Assembly: GCA_964594235.1 (NCBI GenBank) | Contig: CAZQMF010000004.1 | Location: 9,718-73,717 of the forward strand | Source of the DNA: an uncultured Acidimicrobiia bacterium | GTDB taxonomy: Bacteria > Actinomycetota > Acidimicrobiia > Spongiisociales > UBA4744 | Direction: 5' to 3' | Length of the DNA: 64,000 bases | In this document: one piece after another, positions 8,999 through 59,285 of the stretch | Layout: each line of letters starts with the position of its first letter | Numbering within the stretch: the first letter of the stretch is position 1 | The notes under the pieces: generated by a model | What the model saw: only the letters and a program-made list of their open reading frames with translations | The model's database searches: none | Told to the model about the DNA's origin: nothing | Program-made: the position numbers and the translations under genes

Positions 8999-9078
8999 GC
9001 CATAGCTATCGGCTCCGACAGCCAAACCACTTAGCCATAAAGTGAGGTGGTCTCGATGGCTCCCGAAGTGTCTAGTCC

Positions 9079-35358: not shown

Positions 35359-35400
35359 TGCTGATCTACCTCGCCGGCTTTGAATCCGGAATCTTACCCA

Positions 35401-36839: not shown

Positions 36840-36868
36840 GAGATCGGGTAGCTGAGCTACCCGATCTC
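36840..36868. terminator. bidirectional terminator-like hairpin
   Basis: GAGATCGGGTAGC / GCTACCCGATCTC, a 12-13 bp perfect stem. The right arm contains the last codons and TAG of the Mo-subunit gene. Lies between convergent genes. Confidence 0.6.
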
Positions 36869-40295: not shown

Positions 40296-40357
40296 GTCAC
40301 GCCCAAATCTAGCCGCTTGCCGGCCCTGCCTACCCGCTGCCAAGTAAGGTCCGACTC

Positions 40358-41128: not shown

Positions 41129-41152
41129 GGGCCCGCTCGCGGACCCTACATC
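41123..41152. terminator. terminator-like hairpin spanning the Zn-ADH stop
   Basis: 9-bp stem GATGTAGGG / CCCTACATC plus inner GC pairs. Lies between convergent genes. Confidence 0.45.
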
Positions 41153-46887: not shown

Positions 46888-47847
46888 CTACTCCATCGCT
46901 CCCAGCACGAGGGCGAGGAGGGCCATGCGCATCACGACGCCGTTGTACGCCTCCTGCCAGTAGCGGGCGTACTTCGTGGCGTCCACATCGGGTGGCAGCT
47001 CGTCCATGCGCGGCAGCGAGTGCAAGATGATCGCATCCGACTTCGCCTTGTCTGCGAGGAGACCCCTGGTCACCTTGTAGTTGTCCGGGGTGAGACCCAT
47101 CTCGGCGCCGCGCTCGTCGCGGCCTTTCGTGTAATCGGCCTGCACGACTGGCTCCATGTAGATGACGTCCGCCTCTGCGATCACGTCCGCTACATGCTCG
47201 GCCGTACGGACGAACAGGTTCTGCTCGGCGAGTTCGGCCTTGAAGTCATCCGTCAGTGACATCTCGGGTGGCGAGACCGAAATCATCTGCGCATCGAACT
47301 GGGTGAGCGCATATCCGAGCGAGTGCATGGTGCGCATCCGCATGTCACCGATCGCGACGAACGTGAGGCCGTCGATCGTCCCCTTCTCGACCAGCACCGT
47401 GTAGAGATCGGTCAGCACCTGTGTCGGATGTTCTCCCCACCCGTCGCCTGCATTGATGACAGGCACACTCGCCCACTTGGCGGCCTCCTGCGGAGCACCC
47501 TGCTGGAAGTGCCGCATGACGATGGCGTCGCCGTAGTACTCCAGCATGTGAACGGTGTCCTTGATCGACTCCTGGTAGAAGTCGCCGGCACGCGTCATCT
47601 TGGCATCCGAGAACCCCAGCACGGCGCCTCCGAGCCGATGCATCGCCGCCTCATGAGCCATGCGTGTTCGAGTCGACGGCTGGTAGAAGGCGGTCAGCAG
47701 AGTCTTGTCCGACAGCAGATCGATGTTGCGACGTTCACGAGCGATCGGTTCCAGCTCGGATGCGGTCTCGAACACGTGCTCGAACTCTGCCCGTTCGAAG
47801 CCCTTCAGCGACAGGATGTCCCGGCCGGCGAAGCTCCTCATTGACAC
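46888..47847 (-). CDS. aspartate-carbamoyltransferase-like enzyme with a divergent second-substrate site
   Basis: 319 aa. STRTR, MRH, HPTQ and HSLPR conserved. The region aligned with the E. coli Asp-binding TRVQKER reads EPVVQAD. AAGGAG lies before the ATG. Confidence 0.75.
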   Translation of the reverse strand: MSMRSFAGRDILSLKGFERAEFEHVFETASELEPIARERRNIDLLSDKTLLTAFYQPSTRTRMAHEAAMHRLGGAVLGFSDAKMTRAGDFYQESIKDTVHMLEYYGDAIVMRHFQQGAPQEAAKWASVPVINAGDGWGEHPTQVLTDLYTVLVEKGTIDGLTFVAIGDMRMRTMHSLGYALTQFDAQMISVSPPEMSLTDDFKAELAEQNLFVRTAEHVADVIAEADVIYMEPVVQADYTKGRDERGAEMGLTPDNYKVTRGLLADKAKSDAIILHSLPRMDELPPDVDATKYARYWQEAYNGVVMRMALLALVLGAME

Positions 47848-47952: not shown

Positions 47953-48542
47953 GTGGAGGGTAGGAAGCCGACCAACCTGAGGCTGCTGTCGCTCGCCGGA
48001 GGCCTCTTCCCTGTCATCGCGGTCCTCGGCGCGCTTCTGGTCGGCGCCATCATGCTGCTCATCCTGGGAGCAGATCCCCTCGAGGGCTTCCGTTCGCGAA
48101 GCGCGGGTTTCTCGATTTTGCGGCGATCGAGGAGCACTGCGACCAGCTCATCGCCGATTTCAACGTGAAGACGCCGTCGCAGAAGACACTGCTGAGCGCG
48201 ATGTCGGGCGGCAATATCCAGAAGGCAATTTTCGCCCGGGAGTTGTCAGGCAACCCGAAAGTACTCATCGCAGCACAGCCGACACGTGGCGTCGACATCG
48301 GGGCCACCGAGTACATCCATCGGCGACTCCTCGACCAACGGTTCATCCACGAGAAGCTCCTCGATCAACGCAAGGCCGGGACCGCAACGCTGCTGATCTC
48401 CGAAGACCTCGACGAGATCCTCATCCTTGCCGATCGAATCGCGGTCATCTATGAGGGCCGGATCATGGGCATCGTCAACCACGCCGACGCCACGATCGAA
48501 CAACTCGGCCTGATGATGGCAGGCGTGGAAGCAGACAGCTGA
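47953..48542 (+). pseudogene. relic of a BMP/nucleoside-type ABC transporter (permease N-terminus joined to ATPase C-terminus)
   Basis: 47953 to about 48092 encodes a permease-like N-terminus ([29 protein letters not shown]). From about 48100, in another frame, there is an ATPase C-terminal fragment ([23 protein letters not shown]...MSGGNIQK...LLISEDLDEI). No Walker A and no permease body. Confidence 0.6.
48312..48371 (+). repeat. imperfect 30-bp tandem duplication inside the ABC ATPase relic
   Basis: TACATCCATCGGCGACTCCTCGACCAACGG is followed by TTCATCCACGAGAAGCTCCTCGATCAACGC, encoding [10 protein letters not shown] / [10 protein letters not shown]. Confidence 0.7.
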
Positions 48543-48568: not shown

Positions 48569-51500
48569 TCAGCTGTTCGCTGTCCGCTGTTCGCTGTTCG
48601 CTGTTGGCAGGTGCGGCATCGACCCTCGCAGGCCTTGCATGATGGCGTACATGGTCGCGGCTGCCTCGAGCCGCAGGACCGCTCCCTCCTCGCCTGACGC
48701 GTCGAGGACCGTGAACTCGTCGGCATCGATATGCACGGTTCCCTCGGGGCTTTCGTAGGTGAGCGAACCGTTCAGCTCTATGCGGTGTGTCTCCCCAGCG
48801 AACCGCCCCTCCATCGCATCCTCATAGAGCATGAACGCGTTGTCCGTTTCACTGAGGAAATCATCCTTGTTGAGGTAGATCCGCGGCTTGTCGCGATATG
48901 GCTCGCCTGCCGTTGGGCAGAACGTCACACAGTTCCCGCACTCGTTGCAGAAGTCGGTGAGCACCGCTATCTGGTACCCCTGTTCGACCGAGAACGACTC
49001 ACCCGGTGCAACGCTCGTCTCTCCATCTCCAATCGTGACAACGGACAGATCGAACGACAAAGGCTCCATCGCGTAGGTCATCAGCGCCATGTTGGGGCAC
49101 ACGCCGACACAGATGCTGCAGTAGAGGTCGCAGTCGAGGCAGCGCGATGCCTCCTTCTGGGCTTCCTCCACCGTGTAGGGGAACGTCCCTATTTCGAAGT
49201 TCTTGCGTTCGCCGACCGGAACGTGCGTGATGGGCACGCGGTACTCGCGGTGCGCCTTGCGCACCTGGATGTCCGCCACGGAGAACACCGGCTGGTTTCT
49301 CGGTGCCGGCACGACCCTGCCACCCTCCCGCTCGATGATCGCCGCTGCAGCCACCTTGGCGTCACCGGCCGCCTTCACGATCGATGCCGGTCCCGGAGCG
49401 GCGACGTCACCTGCCGCGAACACGCCCGGGATGGACGTCTCCATGGTGGCCGGATCGACGTCGAGGTATCCGCCGCGGGTCAACGCGGGCGCCTCCTCGT
49501 CGAAGAAGTCGATCAGGGCATGCTGGCTGATCGCGAGGATCATCGTGTCGAACGGAAGCTCGAACTCCGACCCTTCGATCGTGTGCGGCACCTTGCGGCC
49601 CGACGCGTCCCTGTCGCCCCGGTACTCGTTGCGAACGCAGACCAACCCGGCAAGGGCTCCGTTTTCGATGTGGAGAGACACCGGGCTGGTCAGCTCCTCG
49701 ACACGGATGCCCTCTTCGAGAAGCAGATGGACCTCCTCCCTGTCCGCAGGCATCTGATCGATCGTACGCCGGTAGACCACGGTCACGTTGTCCGTCCCGA
49801 GACGCCATGAGGTTCGTGCGCAGTCCATTGCGGTGTCGCCGGCCCCGATGACCGCCACCCTGTCTCCGATCGGCACCGGGTGACCCTCTCGTGCCGCCCT
49901 GAGGAAGTGAAGGGCATCCATGACACCGGCGGCTTCCTCACCGTCGAGTCCGAGGCGCTTGCCGATTTGGGCACCGGCGGCTACCAGCACATAGCGGTAG
50001 CCCTGCTTCCGTAGGTCCGAGACGGTGAAGTCTCGTCCCGCAATCTGGCCATATCTGGTTTCGACGCCGAGGTCATCGACGACGACCATGTCCTTGTCGA
50101 TCTCGCTCTGGGGAAGGCGATACTCCGGAATCGCGCCGGACACCATGCCACCCGGGTAGGGGTGCTGTTCGAACATCGTGACTTCGAACCCCCCACCGGC
50201 GAGGAGCTCAGCGGCGGACATGCCCGCGGGGCCGGCTCCGATGATCGCCACTTTGATGCCGGTCGGCGGCTTCGGGACCGTCGCTGGGGGTGCGGTCTCG
50301 AGCGTCATGACGAATCGTTTCATATCCCGGATAGCCAACGGCTCGTCGTAGTGGGTCCTGACACAGGTGTGCTCGCACAGGTGGTCGCAGACCTGACCAA
50401 GGATCGTCGGGATCGGGTTGTCCTGACGGGTGACCGCAACGGCGATCTCCCAGTCGCCGTCTCGAACGGCGCGCATGTACTCGGGGACCCGCTGATTCAC
50501 CGGGCACTCGTCCTCGCATGGCGCTGCGATGCAGTCGAATAGGTCCAGGGGGCGCACGGTCTTGGAGCGGCTTCTGAAGAACGAACCCTTCTCGAGATCC
50601 CATGCGTGTCTCGTCTCCGCCGAGTAGGCGCGCAGGTTGACCCGTGCGGCGGCCGTGACCAGGGCATGACGAGTCGCCGGGTTTCGAGGCAGAATCCCGC
50701 CTTCACTGAGACGTACGACCTCTTCGGCCGCCGGCTCCACGCCGAGAGTTTCTGCGAACACTCCTGTGAGCTCGCCTGGGCGTTCCAGGGCGGTGCGCAC
50801 GATCAACTCGTCGAGGTTCCCTGCTCCCGCAACGTCGAGCGCGGCGTCGGTGGTTTCGAAGTACTGCAGCATCCGCATGTACCCACCGGACTTGAGCAAG
50901 TCACTGCACACGGTGACGGTGCTCATTCCTGAGGCGAGGAGTGACGGGACGTTGAAGGCGTCCGCTCCGCCCGCAAACGACATGAGCAAGTCCCCTGCGA
51001 ACTCCTCGTTGAGCCGGTTGGCGACACTGGTGGTGATCGCGTGCAGCGCCCTGCCGGACATGTACATGGTCTCGTCGGTGAACACATCGCGGAAGTTCTC
51101 CACCTCGAGGGTGTTCGTGAGCTTGACGCCAAACGTCAAGCCCTCGGCTGCTCCGACGGTTGTGAGTCTGCGCAGCATCGGAACTGCGTCTGAGTACTGA
51201 AGGTCGTGTCCGAAGGCGGCGTCGGGAACAGGCACGTCCCGGTAGCCGAGACCTGACAGGATGGAGCGAACACCGTCCGGACCCAACAGCGTTGGATTCA
51301 GCTTCACGCTCGTATGTAGATGTCGCTGCTTCATGAGGTACTGGCTGATCGTCTCGATCTCGTCCGGCGGGCAACCGTGCATCGTGGAGAGGGTGATCGT
51401 GTCCGACAGCCGTGTCGGAATGTCGATGGTGCGAACCTCCGGGTAGTCAGCTGCGACGATGTCGACCATCTCGGCGACCCCCTCGGAGGCGTCGTTCATC

Positions 51501-52012
51501 CGCTCGAAGTACCACTGGACGTTCGGCTGCTGGATACCTGCGTAGTCGTACCCGACACTCATGTTGAAGATCAGGCCGGGATGGTCGCCCGGGAAGCCGA
51601 GCCGCCGGTGGAGGGCATGAACGAGCACCCACGCCCGGAGGTACTCCTCGAAGGACTCGTGCACCTTCAGTTCCTGCGACCACTCGACGTTGTAGCCCTC
51701 GTCTTGGCAGTCGATACACGGCTTGGGCACGTCGAGTTCATCGAGCGTCTGCACTGTCTTCAGCTCGATGAACCGTGCACCGTGGAGCCACGCGACGACG
51801 ATGTTCTGGGCCATCTGTGTGTGAGGTCCCGCGGCGACACCGAACGGCGTGTCCAGCGCCTGACCGTACACGTTGGTCCGGTAGCGGTCCGTGGGGTCGG
51901 GAACGAAGAACGCGGAACGCGGGAACCCGAAGATCGTGTCTTCGGCCTCGAGTTCGGAGAACACCCATCTGCTGAGCGCGCGGGCGCTGATCGGGTGGAA
52001 TCGATCGGACAT
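48569..52012 (-). CDS. ygfK: YgfK-like multidomain Fe-S flavoprotein (DPD/DHODH-like barrel, GltD-like FAD/NAD(P) module, 2x[4Fe-4S])
   Basis: Homology begins at MSDRFHPISARAL. ATG 52012 follows GAGAGGAG. Motifs VAIIGAGPAGMSAA, VAVIGAGDTAMDCA, CLDCDLYCSICVGVCP and FCNECGNCVTFCP. Confidence 0.85.
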   Translation of the reverse strand: MSDRFHPISARALSRWVFSELEAEDTIFGFPRSAFFVPDPTDRYRTNVYGQALDTPFGVAAGPHTQMAQNIVVAWLHGARFIELKTVQTLDELDVPKPCIDCQDEGYNVEWSQELKVHESFEEYLRAWVLVHALHRRLGFPGDHPGLIFNMSVGYDYAGIQQPNVQWYFERMNDASEGVAEMVDIVAADYPEVRTIDIPTRLSDTITLSTMHGCPPDEIETISQYLMKQRHLHTSVKLNPTLLGPDGVRSILSGLGYRDVPVPDAAFGHDLQYSDAVPMLRRLTTVGAAEGLTFGVKLTNTLEVENFRDVFTDETMYMSGRALHAITTSVANRLNEEFAGDLLMSFAGGADAFNVPSLLASGMSTVTVCSDLLKSGGYMRMLQYFETTDAALDVAGAGNLDELIVRTALERPGELTGVFAETLGVEPAAEEVVRLSEGGILPRNPATRHALVTAAARVNLRAYSAETRHAWDLEKGSFFRSRSKTVRPLDLFDCIAAPCEDECPVNQRVPEYMRAVRDGDWEIAVAVTRQDNPIPTILGQVCDHLCEHTCVRTHYDEPLAIRDMKRFVMTLETAPPATVPKPPTGIKVAIIGAGPAGMSAAELLAGGGFEVTMFEQHPYPGGMVSGAIPEYRLPQSEIDKDMVVVDDLGVETRYGQIAGRDFTVSDLRKQGYRYVLVAAGAQIGKRLGLDGEEAAGVMDALHFLRAAREGHPVPIGDRVAVIGAGDTAMDCARTSWRLGTDNVTVVYRRTIDQMPADREEVHLLLEEGIRVEELTSPVSLHIENGALAGLVCVRNEYRGDRDASGRKVPHTIEGSEFELPFDTMILAISQHALIDFFDEEAPALTRGGYLDVDPATMETSIPGVFAAGDVAAPGPASIVKAAGDAKVAAAAIIEREGGRVVPAPRNQPVFSVADIQVRKAHREYRVPITHVPVGERKNFEIGTFPYTVEEAQKEASRCLDCDLYCSICVGVCPNMALMTYAMEPLSFDLSVVTIGDGETSVAPGESFSVEQGYQIAVLTDFCNECGNCVTFCPTAGEPYRDKPRIYLNKDDFLSETDNAFMLYEDAMEGRFAGETHRIELNGSLTYESPEGTVHIDADEFTVLDASGEEGAVLRLEAAATMYAIMQGLRGSMPHLPTANSEQRTANS
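48572..48611 (+). repeat. heptad repeat array D (GCTGTTC GCTGTCC GCTGTTC GCTGTTC GCTGTTG GCAGG)
   Basis: Five 7-nt units, inverted relative to array E. Overlaps the last 12 codons of the ygfK-like gene (tail TANSEQRTANS). Confidence 0.7.
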
Positions 52013-52025
52013 GCTCACACTCCTC

Positions 52026-53048
52026 TCACAGCCGGGCGTGGAGTCGCTTCGCTTGCTCTCGAGCTCTCGCCCGGATCTCCTGCGCGTCGACCTTCGTCGG
52101 GCTGCCATTCTGGAACACGACCTCGCCGTCCATCTCGACCTTCAGGGGCCGGACACCAGGGGTGAACGCCAGGTGCCAAGGGTCCATCGGTTCGTATGAC
52201 CACGTCACCTCGTCCTCGAGCGCCTCGGGCGCGAGGTTCCATCCTTCCTCCAGCCACCTCCAGGCTGTCTCAGGCGATGCGGTCACGTCGACAGACCGAT
52301 GCATCACGTAGGCAAGACGGAACGACTCGACCATCGCGGCGCCTATCCCGTCCGTGCCGAGCGCCACGGGGTTGTCGAATCGCACCGGGTTCGCGTACCC
52401 GACGGCGTTGTTCAGGTTGGACCGAGGGTTGTGCACGACCGTGCCACGGAGTTCGTGGTCGGTCGGCAGATGCACGGCGTGGATCAGCAACCAGTCGTCG
52501 GTCGTGAGCCCTTGGAGCTTGAATGTGGCGTCTCTGTCGATTTCGCCTTCTGCGACATGGACGTGGACACCGACCCTCATATCGTTGGCGAGTCCGGCAG
52601 CGGCCTCCAGGCTCCCGTCAGTGCAGGTGAACGCTGCGTGGATCCCAACGAGCCCGTTGCCACCTGCTTTGATGAACCGTTCGTTCTCCGCGAGTCCCCT
52701 CAGGGCCCCTTCGTGCCCGTGCCGGTCCGTGATCCCGTAGGCACAGACGACTCGCACGCCGACCTCGGCACAGGCATCTGCGATCACCGACAGGCTCCCT
52801 TCGATCGCGTTCGGCGACTCGTTGTGATCGATGATGACGGTGGTTCCCTGTTCGAGCGCCTCGAGTGCGCCGAGTTTGGCCGACCACTCGAGCATCTCGA
52901 GGTCGAGAGCAGTGTCGAGCCTCCACCACACCTGCTCGAGAATCTCGAGGAAGTTGGTCGGGGTAGCCGGCGGCGCCGGCATGCCTCGTGCGAGTGTCGA
53001 ATACAGGTGGTGATGTGCGCACACCATGCCAGGGGTCGTCGATGCCAT
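52026..53048 (-). CDS. ssnA: SsnA-like amidohydrolase lacking the usual N-terminal beta-sandwich segment
   Basis: 340 aa. Starts at MASTTPGMVCAHHHLYS, with the HxH site at residues 11-13. VWWRLDTALD, HNPRSNLNNAVGY and LGTDGIGAAM match my recollection of E. coli SsnA. AGGAGG lies 4 nt before the ATG. Confidence 0.8.
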   Translation of the reverse strand: MASTTPGMVCAHHHLYSTLARGMPAPPATPTNFLEILEQVWWRLDTALDLEMLEWSAKLGALEALEQGTTVIIDHNESPNAIEGSLSVIADACAEVGVRVVCAYGITDRHGHEGALRGLAENERFIKAGGNGLVGIHAAFTCTDGSLEAAAGLANDMRVGVHVHVAEGEIDRDATFKLQGLTTDDWLLIHAVHLPTDHELRGTVVHNPRSNLNNAVGYANPVRFDNPVALGTDGIGAAMVESFRLAYVMHRSVDVTASPETAWRWLEEGWNLAPEALEDEVTWSYEPMDPWHLAFTPGVRPLKVEMDGEVVFQNGSPTKVDAQEIRARAREQAKRLHARL

Positions 53049-53067
53049 AGAACCTCCTGCCGCAAAC

Positions 53068-55617
53068 CTACCCGCTGGGTGCCAGCGGAAGCGTCTTCCT
53101 CCAGAACCCGTCTCTGTCGTGCATTGCTGCAGCGACCGCCGGCGCGGTCGGGACCAGCCCGATCTCCCCGACGCCCTTCACGCCGTACGGGGCGTTCGGT
53201 TGAGGCACCTCGATGATGATGACGTCAACGGGGGGCATGTCCTTGGCACGCAGAATGCCGAAGCTGCGGAACGTCATGTTGGTGGGCCGTCCTGAGTCGT
53301 CGACAGGGAAGTCCTCGGAAAGCGCGTACCCGAGCCCCATGTGGACGGCACCTTCGATCTGACCTTCAACGAGCGTCGGATTCACCGCCTTACCGACGTC
53401 GTGTGCCGCGACGACCCGCTCGATTTCGCCCGTTTCGCGATCCATGATGACCACCTGCGCGGCATATCCGAACGCGGAGTGAATGGTCGGATGCTCGACA
53501 CCGGACTCGAGCGAGTCAGTCCAGTCGATGACATACTGGCCGAGGTGATCCACACCCACCGTTCTGCCTGCCTCGATGGCGTTCCGGCAGGCGTCTTGGA
53601 TTGCCCCCGCGCCGAGCAGCGTCCCACGGGAACCGGTCGTCTGTCCGTCCCCCAGCTCCCTCGTGGTGTCGACGATCACGCGGACGCGTGCCGTGTCGAC
53701 ACCGAGCTCCTCGGCGACGACCTGCTGCGCGACAGTGTGGACGCCTTGGCCCATCTCGGTCCAGCAGTGACGGACTTCGACAGTGCCGTCCTCTTCGAAC
53801 CGAACGACCGCCCTCGACTCCTCCTTGTACCCGTTGCCGAGGCCGGTGTTCTTCAGCGCGAGTCCGAGTCCCACCGCCTTGCCTTCCGATCGGGCGGCGT
53901 CGTACACGCTCTTGACGGCGGCCAGGCACTCCGAGGCTCCTCTGCAGCCGTCGTCCATGATCTGCCCAGGGCCCCACTCGACGCCGGGGGTGATGACGTT
54001 GCGTGCTCTGATCTCCCAGCCGGAGATGCCGACGAGCTCCGCCAACCGATCGAGGGTCCCTTCCATCGCGAATTGTGCCTGGTTGGCGCCGAACCCTCGG
54101 AACGCGCCACACACCGGGTTGTTGGTTCGCACCGCGATCGACTCGACGTCGACGTTGGGAACGACGTACGGACCAGTCGCGTGCCCCGCGGCACGTTCGA
54201 GCACTTTCATGCCGACGGAGGCGTATGGACCGGAGTCACCGACGAGACGCGCCCTCACTGCAGTCAGCCTGCCGTCCTCGTCGCACCCCACCGCGTACTC
54301 GAGACGGATGGGATGGCGTTTGGCGTGCATCAAGAGCGACTGTTCCCTGGTGAGCGTGCACTTGACGGGTCGGCGGAGCAGCCACGCAGCCAGTGCCGTT
54401 TGGCCCTGGTTGGACATGTCCTCTTTGCCTCCAAACGCTCCCCCGTTCGAAACGAGCTCGACCGTGACCGCGTCGTTCGGTGCGGCGAGCAACGCGGCGA
54501 TCTGATCGCGGTCATCCCATACGCCTTGGCCGCCCGAGTAGACGTGGAGTCTGCCGCTCGGCGCGGGCACGGCAAGGGTCGACTCCGGTTCGAGGAACGC
54601 GTGCTCGACCCGTTGGGTCGTGAAGATCTCGTTGATCGTGTGACTGCTCGATGCGAGCGCGGAGTCGACGTCACCGCGCTGGTACGTGGAGCGCGACAAG
54701 ATGTTGCCATCGAGCCCCCACACGGCATCCTCGTCCGATGCAAGAGCCTTCTCGGCGTCCGTGAACGGTGCAAGTGGGCGATAGTCGACAGCTATCAGCT
54801 CGGCGGCCCGAAGGGCCGTTTCCCGACGTTCGGCGACGACGATTGCGAGCACATCGCCGAGATAGGAGGTGCGCCCTCCTTCCGGGATGAAGACGGGCCA
54901 GTCCTTGTCGATCAACCCGACGCGGAGCGTTCCCGGCACATCCTTGGCGGTGAACACAGCAGTGACCCCGGCAACCGCTTTCGCGGCGCTGGTGTCGATA
55001 CCAAGGACATCTGCGCGAGCGTGGTCGGCGAGGCGCAGTGCTGCGTGAAGCATCCCATCGACCTTCAGATCATCGACGTACCCTCTAGTGCCGAGAGCCA
55101 ACTCTCTCGCCTCGTACTTGACGCCGGTGGAACCGACGCCGCCAGGCGACGCGACTTCGATCCGATCGCCGTGGGCGACAGCCTCGATGGCGGCGAAGAC
55201 CTTGAGGTAGCCGGTGCAACGGCAGAGGTTCGCTCCGAGGTGGCGCCGGAGATCGTTGCGCGTGAGCTCACGACCTTTCTTGTCGATCAGAGCCTTCGAT
55301 CGCATGATGATGCCCGGCGTGCAGAACCCGCACTGGGTGGCACCGTATGCAGCGAACGCGTCGGCGAAACGATCGCGCTCCTCGTCGGACAGTCCTTCCA
55401 GGGTGGTGATGGTCGTGCCTTCGGCTCTGTCGACGTCCATCTGGCACGACACGCGAGCCTTGCCGTCGACGAGGATCGTGCAGGCACCGCACTGGCCAGA
55501 GGGTGAGCAGCCATCCTTCGGTGAAGTGACACCGAGCTCTTCACGGAGTGCTGCCAGAAGATGGGGATGGTGGTCGTGTACCTCGACGGGCGTGCCATTG
55601 AGGTCGAAACGAGTCAT
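53068..55617 (-). CDS. xdhD: XdhD-like fused [2Fe-2S]/molybdopterin-binding hydroxylase (system 2)
   Basis: N-terminal CSPSGQCGAC, CGFCTPG and CRCTGY, followed by hammerhead and Mo-cofactor domains in one polypeptide. ATG 55617 (MTRFDLNGTPV) is preferred over the listed GTG 55626. Confidence 0.85.
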   Translation of the reverse strand: MTRFDLNGTPVEVHDHHPHLLAALREELGVTSPKDGCSPSGQCGACTILVDGKARVSCQMDVDRAEGTTITTLEGLSDEERDRFADAFAAYGATQCGFCTPGIIMRSKALIDKKGRELTRNDLRRHLGANLCRCTGYLKVFAAIEAVAHGDRIEVASPGGVGSTGVKYEARELALGTRGYVDDLKVDGMLHAALRLADHARADVLGIDTSAAKAVAGVTAVFTAKDVPGTLRVGLIDKDWPVFIPEGGRTSYLGDVLAIVVAERRETALRAAELIAVDYRPLAPFTDAEKALASDEDAVWGLDGNILSRSTYQRGDVDSALASSSHTINEIFTTQRVEHAFLEPESTLAVPAPSGRLHVYSGGQGVWDDRDQIAALLAAPNDAVTVELVSNGGAFGGKEDMSNQGQTALAAWLLRRPVKCTLTREQSLLMHAKRHPIRLEYAVGCDEDGRLTAVRARLVGDSGPYASVGMKVLERAAGHATGPYVVPNVDVESIAVRTNNPVCGAFRGFGANQAQFAMEGTLDRLAELVGISGWEIRARNVITPGVEWGPGQIMDDGCRGASECLAAVKSVYDAARSEGKAVGLGLALKNTGLGNGYKEESRAVVRFEEDGTVEVRHCWTEMGQGVHTVAQQVVAEELGVDTARVRVIVDTTRELGDGQTTGSRGTLLGAGAIQDACRNAIEAGRTVGVDHLGQYVIDWTDSLESGVEHPTIHSAFGYAAQVVIMDRETGEIERVVAAHDVGKAVNPTLVEGQIEGAVHMGLGYALSEDFPVDDSGRPTNMTFRSFGILRAKDMPPVDVIIIEVPQPNAPYGVKGVGEIGLVPTAPAVAAAMHDRDGFWRKTLPLAPSG

Positions 55618-55620
55618 CGG

Positions 55621-55642
55621 CCACACCTTACGCGCCGTGTGG
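55621..55642. promoter_or_regulatory. inverted repeat CCACAC-N10-GTGTGG in the divergent control region
   Basis: Lies in the 92-nt spacer between the xdhD-like gene and the FAD-subunit gene, and overlaps the SD-like AAGGTG of the xdhD-like gene. Function unknown. Confidence 0.25.
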
Positions 55643-55709
55643 CGGTTGTGCCCCTGTACTCTGGCTCTCGAAGAGACGACACCTCGGGGGCGCTAGCATC
55701 TGATCTCGG

Positions 55710-56525
55710 ATGATCACCGAGTACGTGCACTCCGACTCCGTCGAAGAAGCCTACGGGCTCCTGACGTCACTCGGGTCCAGGGCACGCCTCATGGGTGGTG
55801 GAACCGACCTCTCTCTCCACCCTCCCACGGAGGTCGATACGCTCATCGACCTCTCACGAGCGTCACTCGGCGGAATCAGTCGCGACGATGGGGCCATCAC
55901 GATCGGCGCTACGGCGACGTTGACGGAGATGCTCGAGTATGAGCCGCTCGGCAGTGTGTGGTCGGGCGTCGTGCACGCCATGCTCCGGCGTGTTGCATCT
56001 CCACTCCACCGGAACGCTGCCTCGATCGGAGGCCATCTCGCGAGGGGACGCCTCTCAGACGTGGTCCCCGTCATGCTCGCGATCGACGCGTCGGTGCGGT
56101 TCTATGACGGTGCACCGAGACAGATGCCACTCGGCGAGTTCTATGCGACGAGACGCAACCGACGGCCGCTGGTGGTGACCGGTGTTGAGATCCCTGTCGA
56201 TGGAGGCAGGGCCGCGTTCCGGAAGTTCGCCCGCACCACGTATGACCTGGCGATCCTCAATGTGGCATGCGGCGTTCGCTTCGAAGATGCCGTCGTTTCG
56301 TCTGCCAGGATCGTCGTCGGGGAGCGACCTAGCCTCGCCGTGGAACTCGGGGACGCGTCGGAGGTCCTGGTCGGTCAACCCTTCGACGAAGCCTCGATCG
56401 TGCGGGCGGCCCGCGTCGCGAGGGACACCGTCGACGTTCGCTCCGATCCACGGGGAAGCGCCGAGTATCGCCGCCACCTCACCGAGGTGCTCGTTCGTCG
56501 TTGTCTCTTGGAGGTCACACCATGA
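55710..56525 (+). CDS. FAD-binding subunit of molybdopterin dehydrogenase (YgfM-like, system 3 and possibly shared with system 2)
   Basis: 271 aa. GGGTDL and ASIGGHL motifs. The stop overlaps the next start (ATGA). Confidence 0.85.
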   Translation: MITEYVHSDSVEEAYGLLTSLGSRARLMGGGTDLSLHPPTEVDTLIDLSRASLGGISRDDGAITIGATATLTEMLEYEPLGSVWSGVVHAMLRRVASPLHRNAASIGGHLARGRLSDVVPVMLAIDASVRFYDGAPRQMPLGEFYATRRNRRPLVVTGVEIPVDGGRAAFRKFARTTYDLAILNVACGVRFEDAVVSSARIVVGERPSLAVELGDASEVLVGQPFDEASIVRAARVARDTVDVRSDPRGSAEYRRHLTEVLVRRCLLEVTP

Positions 56526-56989
56526 ACCTCACGGTCAATGGTGCCGCGTTCGATGTGGAGGTCAAAGCTTCCGAGAGCCTGCTGGATCTTTTGCGGCGGC
56601 TCGGGTTCAAGGGTGTGAAGAACGGCTGCGACAACGGAGATTGCGGGGCATGCGCCGTGCTGATCGACGGGAGGGCTGTCACGTCGTGTGACTATCCGGC
56701 CCCGGCCGCGGCGGACACCAGCATCCTGACCGTGGAAGGTCTCGGAACCGAGGGTGAGCTACACCCGATTCAAGCTGCGTTCCTCGACGCTGGTGGGGTC
56801 CAGTGCGGCTTCTGTACCCCCGGGATGCTGATCAGCGCCTACGAGTTGCTGAACCGCGTCTCGGAGCCCTCCGAAGACGAGATACGCGAGGCGTTGCGCG
56901 GGAATCTGTGCCGCTGTACGGGCTATGTGAAGCCGGTGGAAGCCATCAGCATCGCCGCGGCGAGGATGCGGGAGGCGACCGGTGGCTGA
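56522..56989 (+). CDS. [2Fe-2S]-binding subunit (system 3)
   Basis: MNLTVNG start 7 nt after GGAGG (the listed TTG 56501 is less likely). CDNGDCGAC, CGFCTPG, CRCTGY. Confidence 0.9.
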   Translation: MNLTVNGAAFDVEVKASESLLDLLRRLGFKGVKNGCDNGDCGACAVLIDGRAVTSCDYPAPAAADTSILTVEGLGTEGELHPIQAAFLDAGGVQCGFCTPGMLISAYELLNRVSEPSEDEIREALRGNLCRCTGYVKPVEAISIAAARMREATGG

Positions 56990-59285
56990 TCAGTTCGTCG
57001 TCGTCGGCCAAAGCGAACGTCGTGTGGATGGGCGAGCGCTGGTAACGGGGAAACCCGTGTTCACCGGTGATCTCGACCTCCCCGGCATGCTGCATCTCGC
57101 GATGCTCGGCTCGCCACATGCACACGCACGAATCACATCCATCTCGACGGAACGTGCAGAAGAGCTCGAAGGGGTGGAGCTCGTGCTGACGCACGTGAAC
57201 ACACCAACGGTCCGCTACACGACCGCGGGACAGGGTCACCCGGAGCCGTCCCCGTACGACTCGCGGATGTTCGATCCGAAGGTCCGCTTCGTCGGGGATC
57301 GGGTAGCCGTCGTCGCTGCCACGTCGAAGGAGATCGCAGAACACGCGCTCGAACTGATCGAGGTCGAGTACGAACCGCTGACGCCCGTCCTGTCGATCGA
57401 CGACGCGCTCGCCGAGGGAGCCCCGGTCATCCACGACGAGACGGACGCATCGGGGATATGGGATGCCGAACACAACATCGCAGGAGTGGTCGAAGCCGAC
57501 GTAGGCGACGTCGACGCGGCGATCGAGTCTGCGTTCGCGAGCGTCGAGTTCACGGGAGAAACCCAGTACGCACAGCATGTCCCGCTCGAACCACACGTAT
57601 CGGTGGCCTACCTCGATGACAACGGGCGGCTGGTGCTCTACACGAGCACGCAGGTCCCCTTCCACGTGCGCCGGATCATCGCACGTGTCCTCGACATCCC
57701 GGCCGGGCAGATCAGGGTCATCAAGCCTCGCATCGGCGGCGGCTTCGGCGTCAAGCAGGAGATCCTCATCGAAGACCTCGTCGGACTCGTCACCTACCGG
57801 ACCGGGCGGCCGTGCAAGCTCGAGTACACGCGAGCCGAGGAGTTCTATGCGTCCCGCACGCGGCACCCGATGCGGGTGACCGTCCGGCTGGGTGCCGACG
57901 AAGACGGCCGTTTGACGGCAGTGCACATGAACGCACTCGAAAACACCGGCGCGTACGGAGCCCACAACCTGACGGTCGTGTCCAACGCAGGCTCCAAGAC
58001 GCTCCCGATGTACAACAAGGCGCCGAATGTCAGGTTCACCGCAAAGGGCATCTACACGAATCTGCCTGTCGGCGGCGCCTACCGGGGATACGGCGCAACC
58101 CAGGGGATCTTCCCGCTCGAAGTCGGTATCGACATGCTCGCCGAGAAACTCGGGATGGACCCACTCGAGCTTCGACGCCTCAATCACATCCGATCCGGCG
58201 AGACCAGCCCGATCTTCGAAGAACTCGGTGAAGGTCGCAAGGGTGTGCCCCAAACGATCGGAAGCTGTGGCCTCGAACGATGCATCGACATCGGGGCCGA
58301 GCGGATCGGCTGGGCCGCCAAGCGTGGCACACGCCTCCGTGAGGGTCCTTGGGTGCACGGCATCGGCATGTCCATCCACATGCAGGGCTCGGGAATCCCT
58401 GCGATCGACATGGCTGCCGCCACGATCAAGATGAACGATGACGGGTCGTTCAACCTCCTGATCGGAGCCACCGACCTCGGCACCGGTTCGGACACCGTCC
58501 TCGCGCAGATGGCCGCCGAGGTTCTCGGCGTCACGCTCGACGACATCATCGTGCTCTCCTCCGACACCGACGTGACTCCGTTCGATGTCGGCGCGTATGC
58601 GTCCTCGACCACCTACGTCTCGGGGTCTGCCGTGGTGCGAGCCGCGACCGATGTGAAGGGCCAGATCACGGCGGTCGCGGCAGCGATGCTCAGAGTCGAT
58701 GCCGATGAGCTCGAGCTCGGTGACGGAAGGGTCATCGCCGAGGATGGTCGAAGCGTCACGTTGGCGGACGTCGCGCTGCGGTCGTTGTACGGGGTGGATC
58801 AGTTCCAGATCGGGGCCACGGCATCGTTCGTCGGTGATGTCTCTCCCCCACCATTCCTCGCGTCGTTCGCGGAGATCGCCATCGACACCGAGACCGGTGA
58901 ACTGAGGATCGTCGACTACGTCGCAGCCGTGGACTGCGGAACAGCGATCAACCCGCGTCTCGCCGAAGGGCAGGCCGAGGGAGCACTCGCGAACGGGATC
59001 GGCTATGCCCTGATGGAGGAGATGCGGTTCGACACGTACGGCCGGATGCGCAACCCCGACCTGGGTCGGTACAAGATTCCCGCTGCCACCGACATGCCTC
59101 CGTTGGAGGTCATCCTCGTGGATACGTACGAGGAGACAGGCCCGATGGGTGCCAAGTCGATCGCAGAGATCGGCATCAATGCCCCGATCCCGACGCTGGC
59201 GAACGCCATCTACGACGCTATCGGTGTCCGATTGACGCATCCTCCGTTCACGTCAGAGAAGATCTGGCGAGCGATGCAGGGCTGA
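56982..59285 (+). CDS. xanthine dehydrogenase family molybdopterin-binding subunit (system 3)
   Basis: 767 aa. IGGGFGVKQE and YRGYGATQG motifs. The GTG start follows GGGAGG and overlaps the Fe-S gene by 8 nt. Confidence 0.9.
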   Translation: MADQFVVVGQSERRVDGRALVTGKPVFTGDLDLPGMLHLAMLGSPHAHARITSISTERAEELEGVELVLTHVNTPTVRYTTAGQGHPEPSPYDSRMFDPKVRFVGDRVAVVAATSKEIAEHALELIEVEYEPLTPVLSIDDALAEGAPVIHDETDASGIWDAEHNIAGVVEADVGDVDAAIESAFASVEFTGETQYAQHVPLEPHVSVAYLDDNGRLVLYTSTQVPFHVRRIIARVLDIPAGQIRVIKPRIGGGFGVKQEILIEDLVGLVTYRTGRPCKLEYTRAEEFYASRTRHPMRVTVRLGADEDGRLTAVHMNALENTGAYGAHNLTVVSNAGSKTLPMYNKAPNVRFTAKGIYTNLPVGGAYRGYGATQGIFPLEVGIDMLAEKLGMDPLELRRLNHIRSGETSPIFEELGEGRKGVPQTIGSCGLERCIDIGAERIGWAAKRGTRLREGPWVHGIGMSIHMQGSGIPAIDMAAATIKMNDDGSFNLLIGATDLGTGSDTVLAQMAAEVLGVTLDDIIVLSSDTDVTPFDVGAYASSTTYVSGSAVVRAATDVKGQITAVAAAMLRVDADELELGDGRVIAEDGRSVTLADVALRSLYGVDQFQIGATASFVGDVSPPPFLASFAEIAIDTETGELRIVDYVAAVDCGTAINPRLAEGQAEGALANGIGYALMEEMRFDTYGRMRNPDLGRYKIPAATDMPPLEVILVDTYEETGPMGAKSIAEIGINAPIPTLANAIYDAIGVRLTHPPFTSEKIWRAMQG

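What the first reader, a model, noticed from the sequence alone, without database searches (positions are those of the whole stretch)
48569..56525. ygfK-ssnA-xdhD (plus ygfM-like) module in rearranged form in a high-GC actinobacterial context
The minus-strand operon xdhD-like -> ssnA-like -> ygfK-like has gaps of only 19 and 13 nt. It faces a divergently transcribed YgfM-like FAD subunit. In E. coli the same four families form ygfK-ssnA-ygfM-xdhD, inside the ygeW-ygeX-ygeY-hyuA-yqeA locus. Recent gut-microbiome work linked homologous clusters in anaerobes genetically to anaerobic urate/purine degradation. Earlier comparative genomics associated those families with selenium-dependent molybdenum hydroxylases. 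Here the order is inverted and the FAD subunit is split off, heading a second FeS/Mo pair, so it may serve both hydroxylases. No selenium-cofactor marker gene is adjacent. YgfK carries a C-terminal extension of about 100 aa after its ferredoxin domain. This looks like a divergent, possibly selenium-independent, version of a pathway whose enzymology is still only partly described.
Basis: partly seen in the sequence, partly recalled or inferred. Interest (0 to 1): 0.8.

Follow-up and report, generated by a model that had tools for sequence, protein, structure and literature searches.

The report
Reductive urate-degradation cluster, environmental actinobacterial variant
This is an uncultured Acidimicrobiia bacterium's version of the recently solved oxygen-free ("2,8-dioxopurine") uric-acid breakdown pathway, built from partly different parts (a shortened ring-opening enzyme, two candidate first-step enzymes, different downstream enzymes); it is a variant of a known system, not a new one.

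Summary
A minus-strand operon of a fused FeS-Mo hydroxylase, an SsnA-like amidohydrolase and YgfK has gaps of 19 and 13 nt. It faces a FAD-FeS-Mo trio.

The family labels need correcting:
- The fused enzyme belongs to TIGR03311 (EF_2570 type, inferred XdhAC type), not XdhD: it is 26% identical to XdhD.
- The split FeS+Mo pair behind the FAD gene is the real XdhD relative (41% identical, Glu606 kept).
- YgfK is a true family member. Its "100-aa C-terminal extension" is mostly a family feature, because E. coli YgfK has about 95 aa there.
- SsnA is a conserved 340-aa short form lacking the N-terminal about 53 aa. It fails the SsnA model cut-offs but keeps the metal ligands and models confidently. 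At least 80 species genomes carry it, mainly Acidimicrobiia and Chloroflexota.

The pathway was solved biochemically in 2025, so its enzymology is no longer open.

Selenium independence is not supported. True YqeB and YqeC genes sit beside the same cluster in 8-9 of 83 related loci. This genome cannot be judged from one window.

HyuA, YgeY and YgeX are missing. Two carbamoyltransferases, a carbamate kinase and two PLP enzymes recur instead.

Verdict: a new variant of a known pathway, of moderate interest.

The parts
53068..55617 (-). Fused [2Fe-2S] + molybdopterin hydroxylase, 849 aa (852 aa from the upstream GTG at 55626). TIGR03311 family (E. faecalis EF_2570 type; inferred to be the C. sporogenes XdhAC type). 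Proposed urate <-> 2,8-dioxopurine oxidoreductase. First gene of the operon.
   Evidence: TIGR03311 scores 842.8 against a cut-off of 830.45; the XdhD model TIGR03313 scores only 202 of 1102. Pfam finds Fer2_2, Ald_Xan_dh_C and MoCoBD_1/2. Identity to XdhD is 26% and to XdhA 28%. It keeps the bovine/rat XOR residues E802, R880, F914 and E1261, has A1078->T, and lacks F1009/T1010 through a 4-aa deletion. An AAGGTG ribosome-binding site precedes the ATG at 55617.
52026..53048 (-). Short-form SsnA-like amidohydrolase, 340 aa. Proposed ring-opening hydrolase acting on dihydro-2,8-dioxopurine.
   Evidence: The best NCBIfam hits are SsnA models, but both fall below cut-off (NF005540 255 of 444; TIGR03314 242 of 455), matching profile positions 58-346 only. 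Identity to E. coli SsnA is 32% over residues 56-438; the N-terminal 53 aa and several loops are missing, while the HxH, His, Glu and Asp ligands are kept. The AF2 model has pLDDT 96. Structural neighbours are COG0402-type deaminases with TMq 0.83-0.86.
48569..52012 (-). YgfK, 1147 aa. FMN/FAD/Fe-S NAD(P)H-dependent reductase, proposed 2,8-dioxopurine reductase. Last gene of the core operon.
   Evidence: TIGR03315 scores 907.7 against a cut-off of 835.3. Pfam finds Fer4_20 and Pyr_redox_2. Identity to E. coli YgfK is 34% over residues 1-1008, with both C-terminal Cys-cluster motifs conserved.
55618..55709 (.). 92-nt divergent intergenic region between the two Mo-enzyme operons.
   Evidence: Sequence read directly. 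No promoter-consensus or Rfam match was found.
55710..56525 (+). FAD-binding subunit, 271 aa, of a three-subunit Mo hydroxylase. Its nearest E. coli homologue is YgfM.
   Evidence: Pfam finds FAD_binding_5 and CO_deh_flav_C. Identity is 28% to YgfM and 24% to XdhB. The YgfM model TIGR03312 scores 63 of 241.5.
56522..56989 (+). [2Fe-2S] subunit, 155 aa. Its ATG overlaps the FAD gene's stop (ATGA).
   Evidence: Pfam finds Fer2 and Fer2_2. Identity to XdhC is 43%.
56982..59285 (+). Mo-binding subunit, 767 aa. It is the closest relative of the E. coli XdhD Mo domain, so together with the FeS subunit it forms a split XdhD. Second candidate urate reductase, or a xanthine dehydrogenase.
   Evidence: Identity is 41% to XdhD residues 167-954 (562 bits) against 35% to XdhA. 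TIGR03313 scores 666 of 1102 and XdhA model NF043082 scores 673 of 780. XdhD Glu606 and its GEG context are conserved.
46888..47847 (-). Aspartate-carbamoyltransferase-like paralogue, 319 aa. Proposed phosphorolytic cleavage of one ureido group.
   Evidence: TIGR00670 scores 253 against a cut-off of 237. Identity to E. coli PyrB is 40%; STRTR and HPTQ are kept, but the 80s-loop Lys-Lys is replaced and the 240s region carries an insert. It co-occurs with short SsnA in 21 of 83 loci.
45815..46789 (-). YgeW/OTC-like carbamoyltransferase, 324 aa.
   Evidence: Identity to YgeW is 33%. It falls below every NCBIfam cut-off (OTC 264 of 306; YgeW 172-175 of 453-500). It lacks the OTCase DxxxSMG motif and has the SW motif seen in YgeW. 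Present in 20 of 83 loci.
44835..45788 (-). Carbamate kinase (YqeA equivalent): ATP from carbamoyl phosphate.
   Evidence: NF009007 scores 376.5 against a cut-off of 266. Identity to YqeA is 48%.
43609..44838 (-). Threonine-synthase-like fold-type II PLP enzyme, 409 aa. Candidate replacement for the diaminopropionate lyase YgeX.
   Evidence: NF006050 scores 293.6 of 303. Pfam PALP matches. Identity to YgeX is 28% over about 120 aa. The best PDB matches are threonine synthases. Present in 11 of 83 loci.
42143..43612 (-). CysK-like PLP enzyme with extra N- and C-terminal regions, 489 aa. Function unknown.
   Evidence: Only weak CysK and PALP hits. Present in 20 of 83 related loci.
41146..42141 (-). 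Zn-dependent alcohol-dehydrogenase family protein at the end of the minus-strand gene run. Role unknown.
   Evidence: TIGR02822 scores 386.8 against a cut-off of 283.5. It follows the PLP genes in L001/L002/L009.
36857..40343 (-). Third Mo hydroxylase, a conventional three-subunit PucC/E/D-like xanthine dehydrogenase: FAD 39504-40343, FeS 39064-39507, Mo 36857-39067.
   Evidence: PucD model TIGR03196 scores 731 of 784 and PucE scores 182 of 254. An XdhB-like hit lies at 39519-40274.
35380..36765 (+). 8-oxoguanine deaminase (produces urate). Left edge of the purine island.
   Evidence: NF006055 scores 678.4 against a cut-off of 532.
48010..48536 (+). Remnant of an ABC-transporter operon: 33 aa of a permease N-terminus joined to the last ~138 aa of the ATPase. 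This is a deletion and rearrangement scar.
   Evidence: tblastn with the intact operon of locus L011 gives 45% and 59% identity. Sequence read directly.

Best explanation
Window 35.4-59.3 kb is a purine-catabolism island of an uncultured Acidimicrobiia bacterium.

Core operon (53068-55617, 52026-53048, 48569-52012, minus strand). I propose it encodes the three upper steps of the reductive 2,8-dioxopurine ("yanthine") pathway:
1. A fused FeS-Mo hydroxylase of the EF_2570/TIGR03311 type removes the C6 oxygen of urate to give 2,8-dioxopurine.
2. YgfK uses NAD(P)H, through FAD, Fe-S clusters and FMN, to dearomatise it.
3. A shortened SsnA hydrolyses the reduced ring. This pulls the unfavourable reduction forward, which would explain the tight translational coupling.

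Divergent FAD-FeS-Mo trio. It is a split homologue of E. coli YgfM-XdhD. It is either a second, NADH-linked urate reductase or a xanthine dehydrogenase.

Urate supply. A third three-subunit XDH and an 8-oxoguanine deaminase would supply urate.

Lower pathway. Two carbamoyltransferases, a carbamate kinase and two PLP enzymes stand where the canonical YgeW, YgeY and YgeX would be. I infer that both ureido groups of 2,3-diureidopropionate are removed by phosphorolysis, giving carbamoyl phosphate and then ATP. A PLP enzyme would then convert diaminopropionate to pyruvate and ammonia.

Shown here: family memberships, gene order and recurrence of the gene set across genomes. Inferred: every substrate assignment, which Mo enzyme performs step 1, and the whole lower pathway.
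For: - YgfK passes its equivalog model; the fused Mo enzyme passes TIGR03311.
- SsnA-family models are the best hits for the amidohydrolase. Metal ligands are invariant among 15 short-form homologues and the fold is modelled confidently.
- YgfK+SsnA, XdhD-YgfM and XdhAC were shown biochemically to perform these steps in E. coli and C. sporogenes.
- In E. faecalis the only Mo hydroxylase in the ygfK/ssnA/ygeW/ygeX/ygeY cluster is EF_2570, the named TIGR03311 member.
- The fused enzyme has A1078->T and lacks F1009, resembling the reported signature F1009V, A1078T/S of 2,8-dioxopurine dehydrogenase (DOPDH, the urate-reducing enzyme).
- Among 83 related loci, the fused enzyme is present in 54 and YgfK in 50 (YgfK in 32 of the 38 loci with full flanks). 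The ATC-like gene is in 21, the OTC-like in 20 and the carbamate kinase in 17.
- YgeY is never present in those loci.
- The XdhD-like subunit and the fused enzyme tend to exclude each other: 1 of 6 against 53 of 77, Fisher p=0.018. That fits interchangeable enzymes for the same step.
- HyuA-type hydantoinase follows ygfK in 3 relatives.
Against: - No activity data exist for any protein of this clade.
- SsnA fails both curated cut-offs and lacks about 100 residues, so its substrate or product could differ.
- HyuA (hydantoin ring opening), YgeY and YgeX are absent from the 64 kb and from 10 kb further to the right. The pathway as encoded here is incomplete unless those genes lie elsewhere or are replaced.
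- NCBIfam names TIGR03311 a xanthine dehydrogenase, and the enzyme keeps the XDH residues E802 and R880.
- I could not obtain the C. sporogenes XdhAC sequence, so I have not verified that it belongs to TIGR03311.
- The ATC-like protein passes the aspartate carbamoyltransferase model and could be an ordinary PyrB.
Confidence: 0.7

Rival explanations
1. Same pathway, with the roles of the two Mo enzymes swapped. The fused TIGR03311 enzyme is a true (selenium-dependent) xanthine dehydrogenase making urate. The FAD-FeS-Mo trio, a split YgfM-XdhD, is the NADH-dependent urate reductase, as in E. coli.
For: - NCBIfam names TIGR03311 'selenium-dependent xanthine dehydrogenase'.
- The fused enzyme keeps XOR E802, R880, F914 and E1261.
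- The 767-aa subunit is 41% identical to XdhD and keeps Glu606, the residue proposed to orient urate.
- Its FAD partner is closest to YgfM.
Against: - The fused gene, not the trio, is translationally coupled to ssnA-ygfK here, and it lies within 10 kb of short ssnA in 54 of 83 relatives against 6 of 83 for the trio.
- E. faecalis degrades urate with EF_2570 as the only Mo enzyme in its cluster.
- A separate PucCDE-like XDH already lies in the island.
- The 767-aa subunit fails both the XdhD and XdhA cut-offs.
Confidence: 0.2
2. One reading: a divergent, selenium-independent version of the pathway in which one YgfM-like FAD subunit serves both hydroxylases.
For: - No selD, yqeB, yqeC or mocA lies in the 64 kb window or in 10 kb beyond its right end.
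- No YqeB homologue on the 418-kb source contig appeared among the best 120 hits.
- The FAD gene sits between the two Mo-enzyme operons.
Against: - True YqeB (303-327 bits against a cut-off of 220) and YqeC (152 against 73) lie beside the same cluster in relatives, in 8-9 of 83 loci.
- NCBI-named YqeB proteins are common in Acidimicrobiia MAGs.
- In C. difficile these markers are unlinked to the pathway genes.
- All gut strains with the cluster had YqeBC and SelD.
- The FAD gene overlaps its own FeS gene. The fused enzyme occurs without any orphan FAD gene in 54 of 54 loci.
- XdhAC does not use NAD(P)H.
Confidence: 0.1
3. The module acts on a different N-heterocycle or ureido compound, not urate. 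The shortened SsnA and the non-canonical lower enzymes would reflect a different substrate, for example another oxopurine, a pyrimidine-type ring, or a hydantoin- or citrulline-like compound.
For: - SsnA is below cut-off and lacks about 100 residues.
- HyuA, YgeY and YgeX are missing.
- The carbamoyltransferases and PLP enzymes are not orthologues of YgeW and YgeX.
- YgfK relatives reduce other rings (dihydropyrimidine-dehydrogenase-like architecture).
Against: - YgfK passes its equivalog model.
- The island also holds 8-oxoguanine deaminase and an XDH, both of which produce urate.
- Relatives carry HyuA-type hydantoinase, YgeX-like lyase and YqeB/C in the same cluster.
Confidence: 0.12
4. YgfK plus the FAD and Mo subunits form a 'YgfKMN selenate reductase' used for anaerobic respiration or detoxification, as older annotation says and as a 2025 genomic study of UBA5794 Acidimicrobiia assumed.
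For: NCBIfam still titles TIGR03315 'putative selenate reductase subunit YgfK'. PMC12008989 interprets ygfK in 53% of UBA5794 genomes this way.
Against: - E. coli and C. sporogenes YgfK were shown to reduce 2,8-dioxopurine together with SsnA.
- Here ygfK is co-operonic with an amidohydrolase and a purine-type hydroxylase, inside a purine island.
Confidence: 0.03

Closest known systems
[quoted passage not shown] 2025, PMC12507026)
   Same: - YgfK is a true family member, 34% identical.
- An SsnA homologue lies directly next to ygfK.
- A carbamate kinase is 48% identical to YqeA.
- An FAD + FeS + Mo enzyme has a Mo domain 41% identical to XdhD with Glu606 kept.
- A separate XDH lies nearby, like xdhABC.
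   Different: - The gene order is Mo-enzyme, then ssnA, then ygfK.
- XdhD is split into two genes and its operon is divergent.
- An additional fused TIGR03311 enzyme heads the ssnA-ygfK operon.
- SsnA lacks 53 N-terminal residues.
- No hyuA, ygeY, ygeX, yqeB, yqeC or mocA lies in 64 kb.
- YgeW is replaced by a shorter OTC-like protein (33% identical) plus an ATCase-like paralogue.
Firmicute 2,8-dioxopurine pathway cluster: C. sporogenes xdhAC-ygfK-ssnA-hyuA-ygeW-ygeY-ygeX (Liu et al. 2025 preprint) and the E. faecalis EF_2570-EF_2582 cluster (Haft and Self 2008)
   Same: - A fused FeS-Mo hydroxylase without an FAD domain, of the EF_2570 family (TIGR03311), is clustered with ygfK and ssnA.
- The active site has A1078->T and no F1009, like the reported DOPDH signature.
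   Different: - The host is a high-GC environmental actinobacterium, not a gut anaerobe.
- SsnA is the short form.
- The lower-pathway genes differ.
- The selenium accessory genes are not in the window.
- Membership of C. sporogenes XdhAC in TIGR03311 was inferred, not checked by sequence.
COG0402 / subtype III amidohydrolases (8-oxoguanine deaminase 3HPA, TM0936, isocytosine deaminase, TrzN)
   Same: The short SsnA model superposes on their (beta/alpha)8 barrel with TMq 0.83-0.86, and it has the same HxH/His/His/Asp metal site.
   Different: Sequence identity is only 18-22%. The targets are about 100 residues longer (TMt about 0.65). The SsnA reaction is ring-opening amide hydrolysis, not deamination.

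Membership tests
YgfK (TIGR03315) | Whole-protein score above the curated equivalog cut-off | tested here: met
   907.7 bits against a cut-off of 835.3.
YgfK (TIGR03315) | Architecture: N-terminal DPD-like domain, Fer4_20, FAD/NAD(P)H Rossmann domains, and a C-terminal 2x[4Fe-4S] motif followed by a tail domain | tested here: met
   Pfam finds Fer4_20 and Pyr_redox_2. The alignment with E. coli YgfK runs from residue 1 to 1008, with both Cys motifs conserved and a post-ferredoxin tail in both proteins.
SsnA (TIGR03314 / NF005540) | Whole-protein score above the curated cut-off | tested here: not met
   242 bits against 455.5, and 255 against 444. Only profile positions 58-346 match.
SsnA (TIGR03314 / NF005540) | SsnA is the best-matching family, and the amidohydrolase metal ligands are present | tested here: met
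   SsnA models outrank the next family by about 175 bits. H12/H14, H164, E167, H190/H193 and D233 are invariant in 15 homologues. Full-length SsnA-sized relatives reach 40-50% identity.
SsnA (TIGR03314 / NF005540) | Full-length two-domain fold, about 440 aa with an N-terminal beta-sandwich arm | tested here: not met
   The protein is 340 aa with HxH at residue 12, against residues 54-70 in long forms. The model covers the barrel with TMt about 0.65 against 430-450-aa structures.
SsnA (TIGR03314 / NF005540) | Genomic coupling to ygfK (or another reductase) and a purine-type Mo hydroxylase | tested here: met
   The gap to ygfK is 13 nt here. YgfK lies within the flanks in 50 of 83 related loci, and in 32 of 38 with full flanks.
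   202 bits against 1101.9, and 26% identity to XdhD.
XdhD (TIGR03313, Mo/Fe-S subunit) | Score above cut-off, and a fused FeS-Mo architecture, for the 767-aa subunit | tested here: not met
   666 bits against 1101.9. The FeS domain is a separate gene. XdhD is nevertheless the best E. coli homologue (41% against 35% for XdhA), and Glu606 is conserved.
TIGR03311 (selenium-dependent XDH / EF_2570 type) | Score above the equivalog cut-off, with a fused 2Fe-2S + Mo architecture and no FAD domain | tested here: met
   842.8 bits against 830.45, covering profile positions 5-842 of 848. Pfam domains are listed.
TIGR03311 (selenium-dependent XDH / EF_2570 type) | The host genome carries the selenium-cofactor markers (SelD, YqeB, YqeC) | not testable with these tools
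Relatives have YqeB and YqeC beside the cluster.
YgfM (TIGR03312, FAD subunit) | Score above cut-off | tested here: not met
   63 bits against 241.5. Generic XdhB/CoxM-type models score higher. By BLAST, YgfM is marginally the closest E. coli protein (28% against 24%).
YgeW (TIGR03316, knotted carbamoyltransferase) | Score above cut-off | tested here: not met
   172 bits against 500 for the 324-aa protein. Identity is 33%, and the YgeW-specific insertions are absent.
Reductive urate (2,8-dioxopurine) gene cluster as scored by Liu et al. (at least 4 of 7: XdhAC, YgfK, SsnA, HyuA, YgeW, YgeY, YgeX) | Presence of at least four of the seven marker proteins | tested here: inconclusive
   An XdhAC-type enzyme and YgfK are present. 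SsnA is present only as the short form, and YgeW only as a distant homologue. HyuA, YgeY and YgeX are absent from the window. Their identity and coverage thresholds could not be applied without the C. sporogenes sequences.

The most novel reading that the evidence does not exclude
The 340-aa short SsnA marks a large environmental clade (mainly Acidimicrobiia and Chloroflexota). By my inference from the model scores and thresholds, the published surveys would have missed it: it fails the SsnA/IPR017700 model and probably the 80%-coverage BLAST filter. I propose that this clade runs a distinct version of the reductive urate pathway. Either of two unrelated Mo enzymes (EF_2570/XdhAC-type or split XdhD-YgfM-type) would do the first step. 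Both ureido groups would be removed by carbamoyltransferases instead of YgeW + YgeY, doubling the ATP gained through carbamate kinase. Diaminopropionate would be handled by ThrC- or CysK-like PLP enzymes instead of YgeX.
Probability: 0.25. Interest if true: 0.6.

Novelty: new variant of a known kind. Interest (0 to 1): 0.4.

Why it matters
The reductive urate pathway was described in 2025 from gut bacteria and presented mainly as a host-associated, selenium-dependent trait.

This locus and its relatives place the upper pathway in abundant sediment and soil Acidimicrobiia and Chloroflexota. It appears there in a form that curated models do not recognise: NCBI names the short SsnA "amidohydrolase" or "8-oxoguanine deaminase".

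The locus also bears on current annotation. A 2025 genomic study of Acidimicrobiia (PMC12008989) still reads ygfK as a selenate reductase, and the context here argues for purine catabolism instead.

The variant offers three things to test:
- a minimal SsnA
- two alternative first-step enzymes side by side
- a possible all-phosphorolytic lower pathway with a higher ATP yield

None of this overturns the known chemistry.

Tried and rejected
- A first AlphaFold run on 15 near-identical short SsnA sequences gave pLDDT 45 and was discarded. A 38-sequence alignment that included long-form relatives gave pLDDT 96.
- An Rfam scan of the whole window found no riboswitch or other RNA family.
- The promoter/terminator consensus scan of 40-59.9 kb found fewer sites than the shuffled controls, so nothing was usable.
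- I looked for selenium genes in the same genome. tblastn of the window was negative, and the 10 kb beyond the right end of the window was negative. A YqeB homologue search showed none of the top 120 clusters on the 418,359-bp source contig. This is inconclusive, because only the best 120 of 7905 hits are listed and the MAG has other contigs.
- I could not retrieve C. sporogenes XdhAC or E. faecalis EF_2570 sequences. The equation of TIGR03311 with XdhAC therefore rests on Haft and Self's table, on NCBIfam and on the active-site signature.
- PDB sequence searches for the two PLP enzymes returned only threonine synthases and cysteine synthases at low scores, so no function could be assigned.
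- I considered whether ORF 48165-48542 is a small pathway protein. I rejected this because it is the C-terminal fragment of an ABC ATPase.
- I considered whether the short SsnA is a truncated pseudogene. I rejected this because the 340-aa length and about 75% identity are conserved across at least 80 species genomes and more than 100 protein clusters.

Full report
**What is in the sequence**

ORF listing and gene calls on identical public contigs agree on a minus-strand run of three genes:
- 53068-55617/55626: an 849/852-aa protein with 2Fe-2S and molybdopterin domains.
- 52026-53048: a 340-aa amidohydrolase.
- 48569-52012: an 1147-aa Fe-S flavoprotein.

Across a 92-nt spacer lies a plus-strand trio. 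The 271-aa FAD subunit (55710-56525) ends in an ATGA overlap with a 155-aa 2Fe-2S subunit (56522-56989). That subunit overlaps a 767-aa Mo subunit (56982-59285) by 8 nt.

The left 35 kb of the window is ordinary housekeeping DNA in a typical actinobacterial order: aspS, hisS, relA, apt, secDF, ruvABC, pdxST, PIM acyltransferase, thrS. The closest named homologues are from Acidimicrobiia MAGs. The source is a 418-kb contig of an ENA metagenome assembly, and the same locus occurs in several JGI metagenomes.

**Family tests**

Family tests:

| Protein | Best result | Outcome |
|---|---|---|
| YgfK (1147 aa) | TIGR03315, 907.7 vs cut-off 835.3 | member |
| Fused Mo enzyme | TIGR03313 (XdhD) 202 vs 1102; TIGR03311 842.8 vs 830.45 | not XdhD; passes TIGR03311 |
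| 767-aa Mo subunit | 41% identical to the XdhD Mo domain (562 bits); 35% to XdhA | XdhD-like, but fails both the XdhD and XdhA cut-offs |
| FAD subunit | 63 vs 241.5 on the YgfM model; 28% to YgfM, 24% to XdhB | generic FAD subunit, YgfM only marginally closest |

By BLAST, the fused enzyme is only 26% identical to XdhD and 28% to XdhA. XdhD Glu606, proposed by Li et al. to orient urate, is conserved with its GEG context in the 767-aa subunit.

The "second FeS/Mo pair" is the split XdhD-like enzyme. The operon partner of ssnA-ygfK is the EF_2570-type enzyme.

**What the fused enzyme probably does**

- In Haft and Self's comparative table, E. faecalis has a single Mo hydroxylase, EF_2570, in its ygfK/ssnA/ygeW/ygeX/ygeY/hyuA cluster. 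Li et al. list E. faecalis among anaerobic urate degraders carrying a variant cluster. A cluster with only one Mo enzyme must use it for the urate-to-2,8-dioxopurine step.
- Liu et al. showed that the fused, FAD-less C. sporogenes XdhAC catalyses exactly that step, with viologen but not NAD(P)H. They report active-site changes F1009V and A1078T/S relative to bovine XOR.
- In the HMMER alignment to rat XDH, the window protein keeps E802, R880, F914 and E1261. It has Thr at A1078 and a 4-residue deletion that removes F1009/T1010.

I therefore assign it as the XdhAC-type urate reductase. I could not obtain the XdhAC sequence to confirm that it belongs to TIGR03311, so this step is inference.

**SsnA is a conserved short form**

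Against E. coli SsnA (442 aa), the protein lacks the first 53 residues and several loops. It aligns through to the C-terminus at 32% identity and keeps the HxH, His, Glu and Asp ligands.

It fails both SsnA models: 255 against 444, and 242 against 455.

It is not a pseudogene:
- More than 100 protein clusters of exactly 340 aa share at least 75% identity.
The best 80 were all full-length at 72-79% identity, mostly labelled Acidimicrobiia or Chloroflexota, with a few other phylum labels.
- A library-wide HMMER search shows long SsnA-sized relatives at 40-50% identity, with HxH at residues 54-70 rather than residue 12.
- With a 38-sequence alignment, AlphaFold gives pLDDT 96 and pTM 0.94.
- The model superposes on COG0402 amidohydrolases such as 8-oxoguanine deaminase 3HPA and TM0936, with TMq 0.83-0.86 but TMt about 0.65. 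This is the barrel with a reduced accessory domain.

NCBI names these proteins "amidohydrolase family protein" or "8-oxoguanine deaminase". Because they fall below the TIGR03314 cut-off, I infer that the IPR017700-based network of Li et al. and the 80%-coverage BLAST survey of Liu et al. probably missed them.

**The YgfK "extension"**

A pairwise alignment shows that E. coli YgfK also has about 95 residues after its last Cys cluster. The window protein's extra 115 residues are:
- an insert of about 55 aa at residues 420-480
- a 24-aa insert between the two C-terminal Cys clusters
- a tail of about 30 aa ending in a short repeat

This is not a novel domain.

**Neighbourhood**

Downstream on the same strand lie:
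- an aspartate-carbamoyltransferase-like protein (40% identical to PyrB, but with the 80s-loop lysines replaced)
- a YgeW/OTC-like carbamoyltransferase (33% identical to YgeW, no OTCase DxxxSMG motif)
- a carbamate kinase (48% identical to YqeA)
- a ThrC-like PLP enzyme
- a CysK-like PLP enzyme
- a Zn-dependent alcohol dehydrogenase

Further left are a complete PucC/E/D-like XDH and an 8-oxoguanine deaminase.

HyuA, YgeY, YgeX, YqeB, YqeC, MocA and SelD give no hit in the window. Nothing relevant lies in the next 10 kb to the right.

**Comparison with 83 related loci**

I annotated the loci by tblastn with the window and E. coli proteins.

| Gene | Loci (of 83) |
|---|---|
| Fused Mo enzyme | 54 |
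| YgfK | 50 (32 of the 38 with full flanks) |
| ATC-like carbamoyltransferase | 21 |
| OTC-like carbamoyltransferase | 20 |
| CysK-like PLP enzyme | 20 |
| Carbamate kinase | 17 |
| ThrC-like PLP enzyme | 11 |
| YqeC | 9 |
| YqeB | 8 |
| XdhD-like Mo subunit | 6 |
| HyuA-type hydantoinase | 5 (directly after ygfK in three) |
| YgeX-like lyase | 3 |
| YgeY | 0 |

- The YqeB and YqeC hits are true family members by NCBIfam.
- The XdhD-like subunit and the fused enzyme tend to exclude each other: 1 of 6 loci with the XdhD-like subunit also carry the fused enzyme, against 53 of 77 without it (Fisher p=0.018). This fits two interchangeable solutions for the same step. The window is unusual in having both.
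- In the 54 loci with the fused enzyme, no FAD gene occurs without its own FeS/Mo partners. This speaks against a shared FAD subunit.

**Selenium**

The window lacks the marker genes, but three observations weaken any inference from that:
- Relatives carry them beside the cluster.
- YqeB is common in Acidimicrobiia MAGs.
- In C. difficile the markers are unlinked to the pathway genes.

Liu et al. found YqeBC and SelD in every gut strain that carries the cluster. Selenium independence is therefore unsupported, and it cannot be tested from this window.

**Mechanism proposed**

- Urate would come from xanthine through the PucCDE-like XDH, and from 8-oxoguanine through the deaminase.
- The fused Mo enzyme would reduce urate to 2,8-dioxopurine. 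Its electron donor is unknown, as it is for XdhAC.
- The split XdhD/YgfM-like trio may do the same step with NADH.
- YgfK would reduce the ring and short SsnA would open it. Li et al. found that the reduction is only detectable when coupled to SsnA.
- The remaining steps are inferred. A hydantoinase encoded elsewhere would open the second ring. The two carbamoyltransferases would then phosphorolyse both ureido groups, and carbamate kinase would make ATP. One of the PLP enzymes would deaminate diaminopropionate.

The recurrent ATC-like gene, together with the complete absence of YgeY in the clade, is the main circumstantial support for this lower pathway.

**Status against the literature**

The pathway and the roles of XdhD-YgfM, XdhAC, YgfK, SsnA, HyuA, YgeW, YgeY and YgeX were established in 2025. 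Li et al. already noted SsnA-family clusters in Actinomycetota and Chloroflexota.

What I found no published account of in the papers read or in a targeted full-text search:
- the short-SsnA clade
- the pairing of two Mo-enzyme types in one locus
- the alternative lower-pathway genes

A 2025 study of UBA5794 Acidimicrobiia still reads ygfK as a selenate reductase. The context found here argues against that reading.

I rate this a new variant of a known kind, of moderate interest.

Noticed in passing
window 48010-48536 (+): Between the carbamoyltransferase gene and the 3' end of ygfK lie two gene fragments. One is 33 aa of an ABC permease N-terminus. It runs straight into the last ~138 aa of an ABC ATPase, which is the 125-aa ORF at 48165-48542. 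In relatives such as L011, an intact four-gene ABC operon lies divergent from the fused Mo enzyme. This looks like a deletion and rearrangement scar. The fragment also holds a 10-aa near-duplication, [19 protein letters not shown].
   Followed up: partly
window 36857-40343 (-) and 35380-36765 (+): A third XDH-family enzyme has its own FAD (39504-40343), FeS and PucD-like Mo subunits (PucD model 731 of 784 bits). It sits beside a confident 8-oxoguanine deaminase (678 bits against a cut-off of 532). The window therefore carries three Mo hydroxylases within 23 kb.
   Followed up: partly
loci L046:3908-6269, L021:19464-21013, and L043/L044/L051/L070/L075/L082: In related Acidimicrobiia, E. coli's 541-aa YqeB is represented by two separate genes: an XdhC-like maturation factor and a ~266-aa YqeB core. 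These are followed by YqeC and usually lie just downstream of the XdhD-like Mo subunit. An ACR3 arsenite efflux gene sits next to them in L046.
   Followed up: partly
loci L008-L090 (83 related loci): Short SsnA is far more conserved than its neighbours. It is about 75% identical between Acidimicrobiia and Chloroflexota copies. The fused Mo enzyme drops from about 70% to about 52%, and YgfK stays at 55-61%. A few loci carry bin labels from other phyla (Gemmatimonadales, Kiloniellaceae, Acidobacteria, Gammaproteobacteria). This could mean horizontal transfer or mis-binning; I did not resolve which.
   Followed up: no
window 40358-41023 (+): A 221-aa hydrophobic ORF with no family match lies divergent from the third XDH operon. 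It was found in only one related locus (L020). It may be a small membrane protein or transporter of unknown role.
   Followed up: no
window 48569-48600: The last residues of YgfK (PTANSEQRTANS) are encoded by a short tandem DNA repeat (gctgttcgct...). Part of the C-terminal tail may therefore be a recent slippage product rather than functional sequence.
   Followed up: no
window 5110-9025 (-): Three consecutive ORFs of 477, 183 and 644 aa lie between the glyoxalase-II-like gene and relA. They have coding-type GC3, but none has an NCBIfam match, and the two that were also scanned against Pfam (477 and 644 aa) have no Pfam match either.
   Followed up: no
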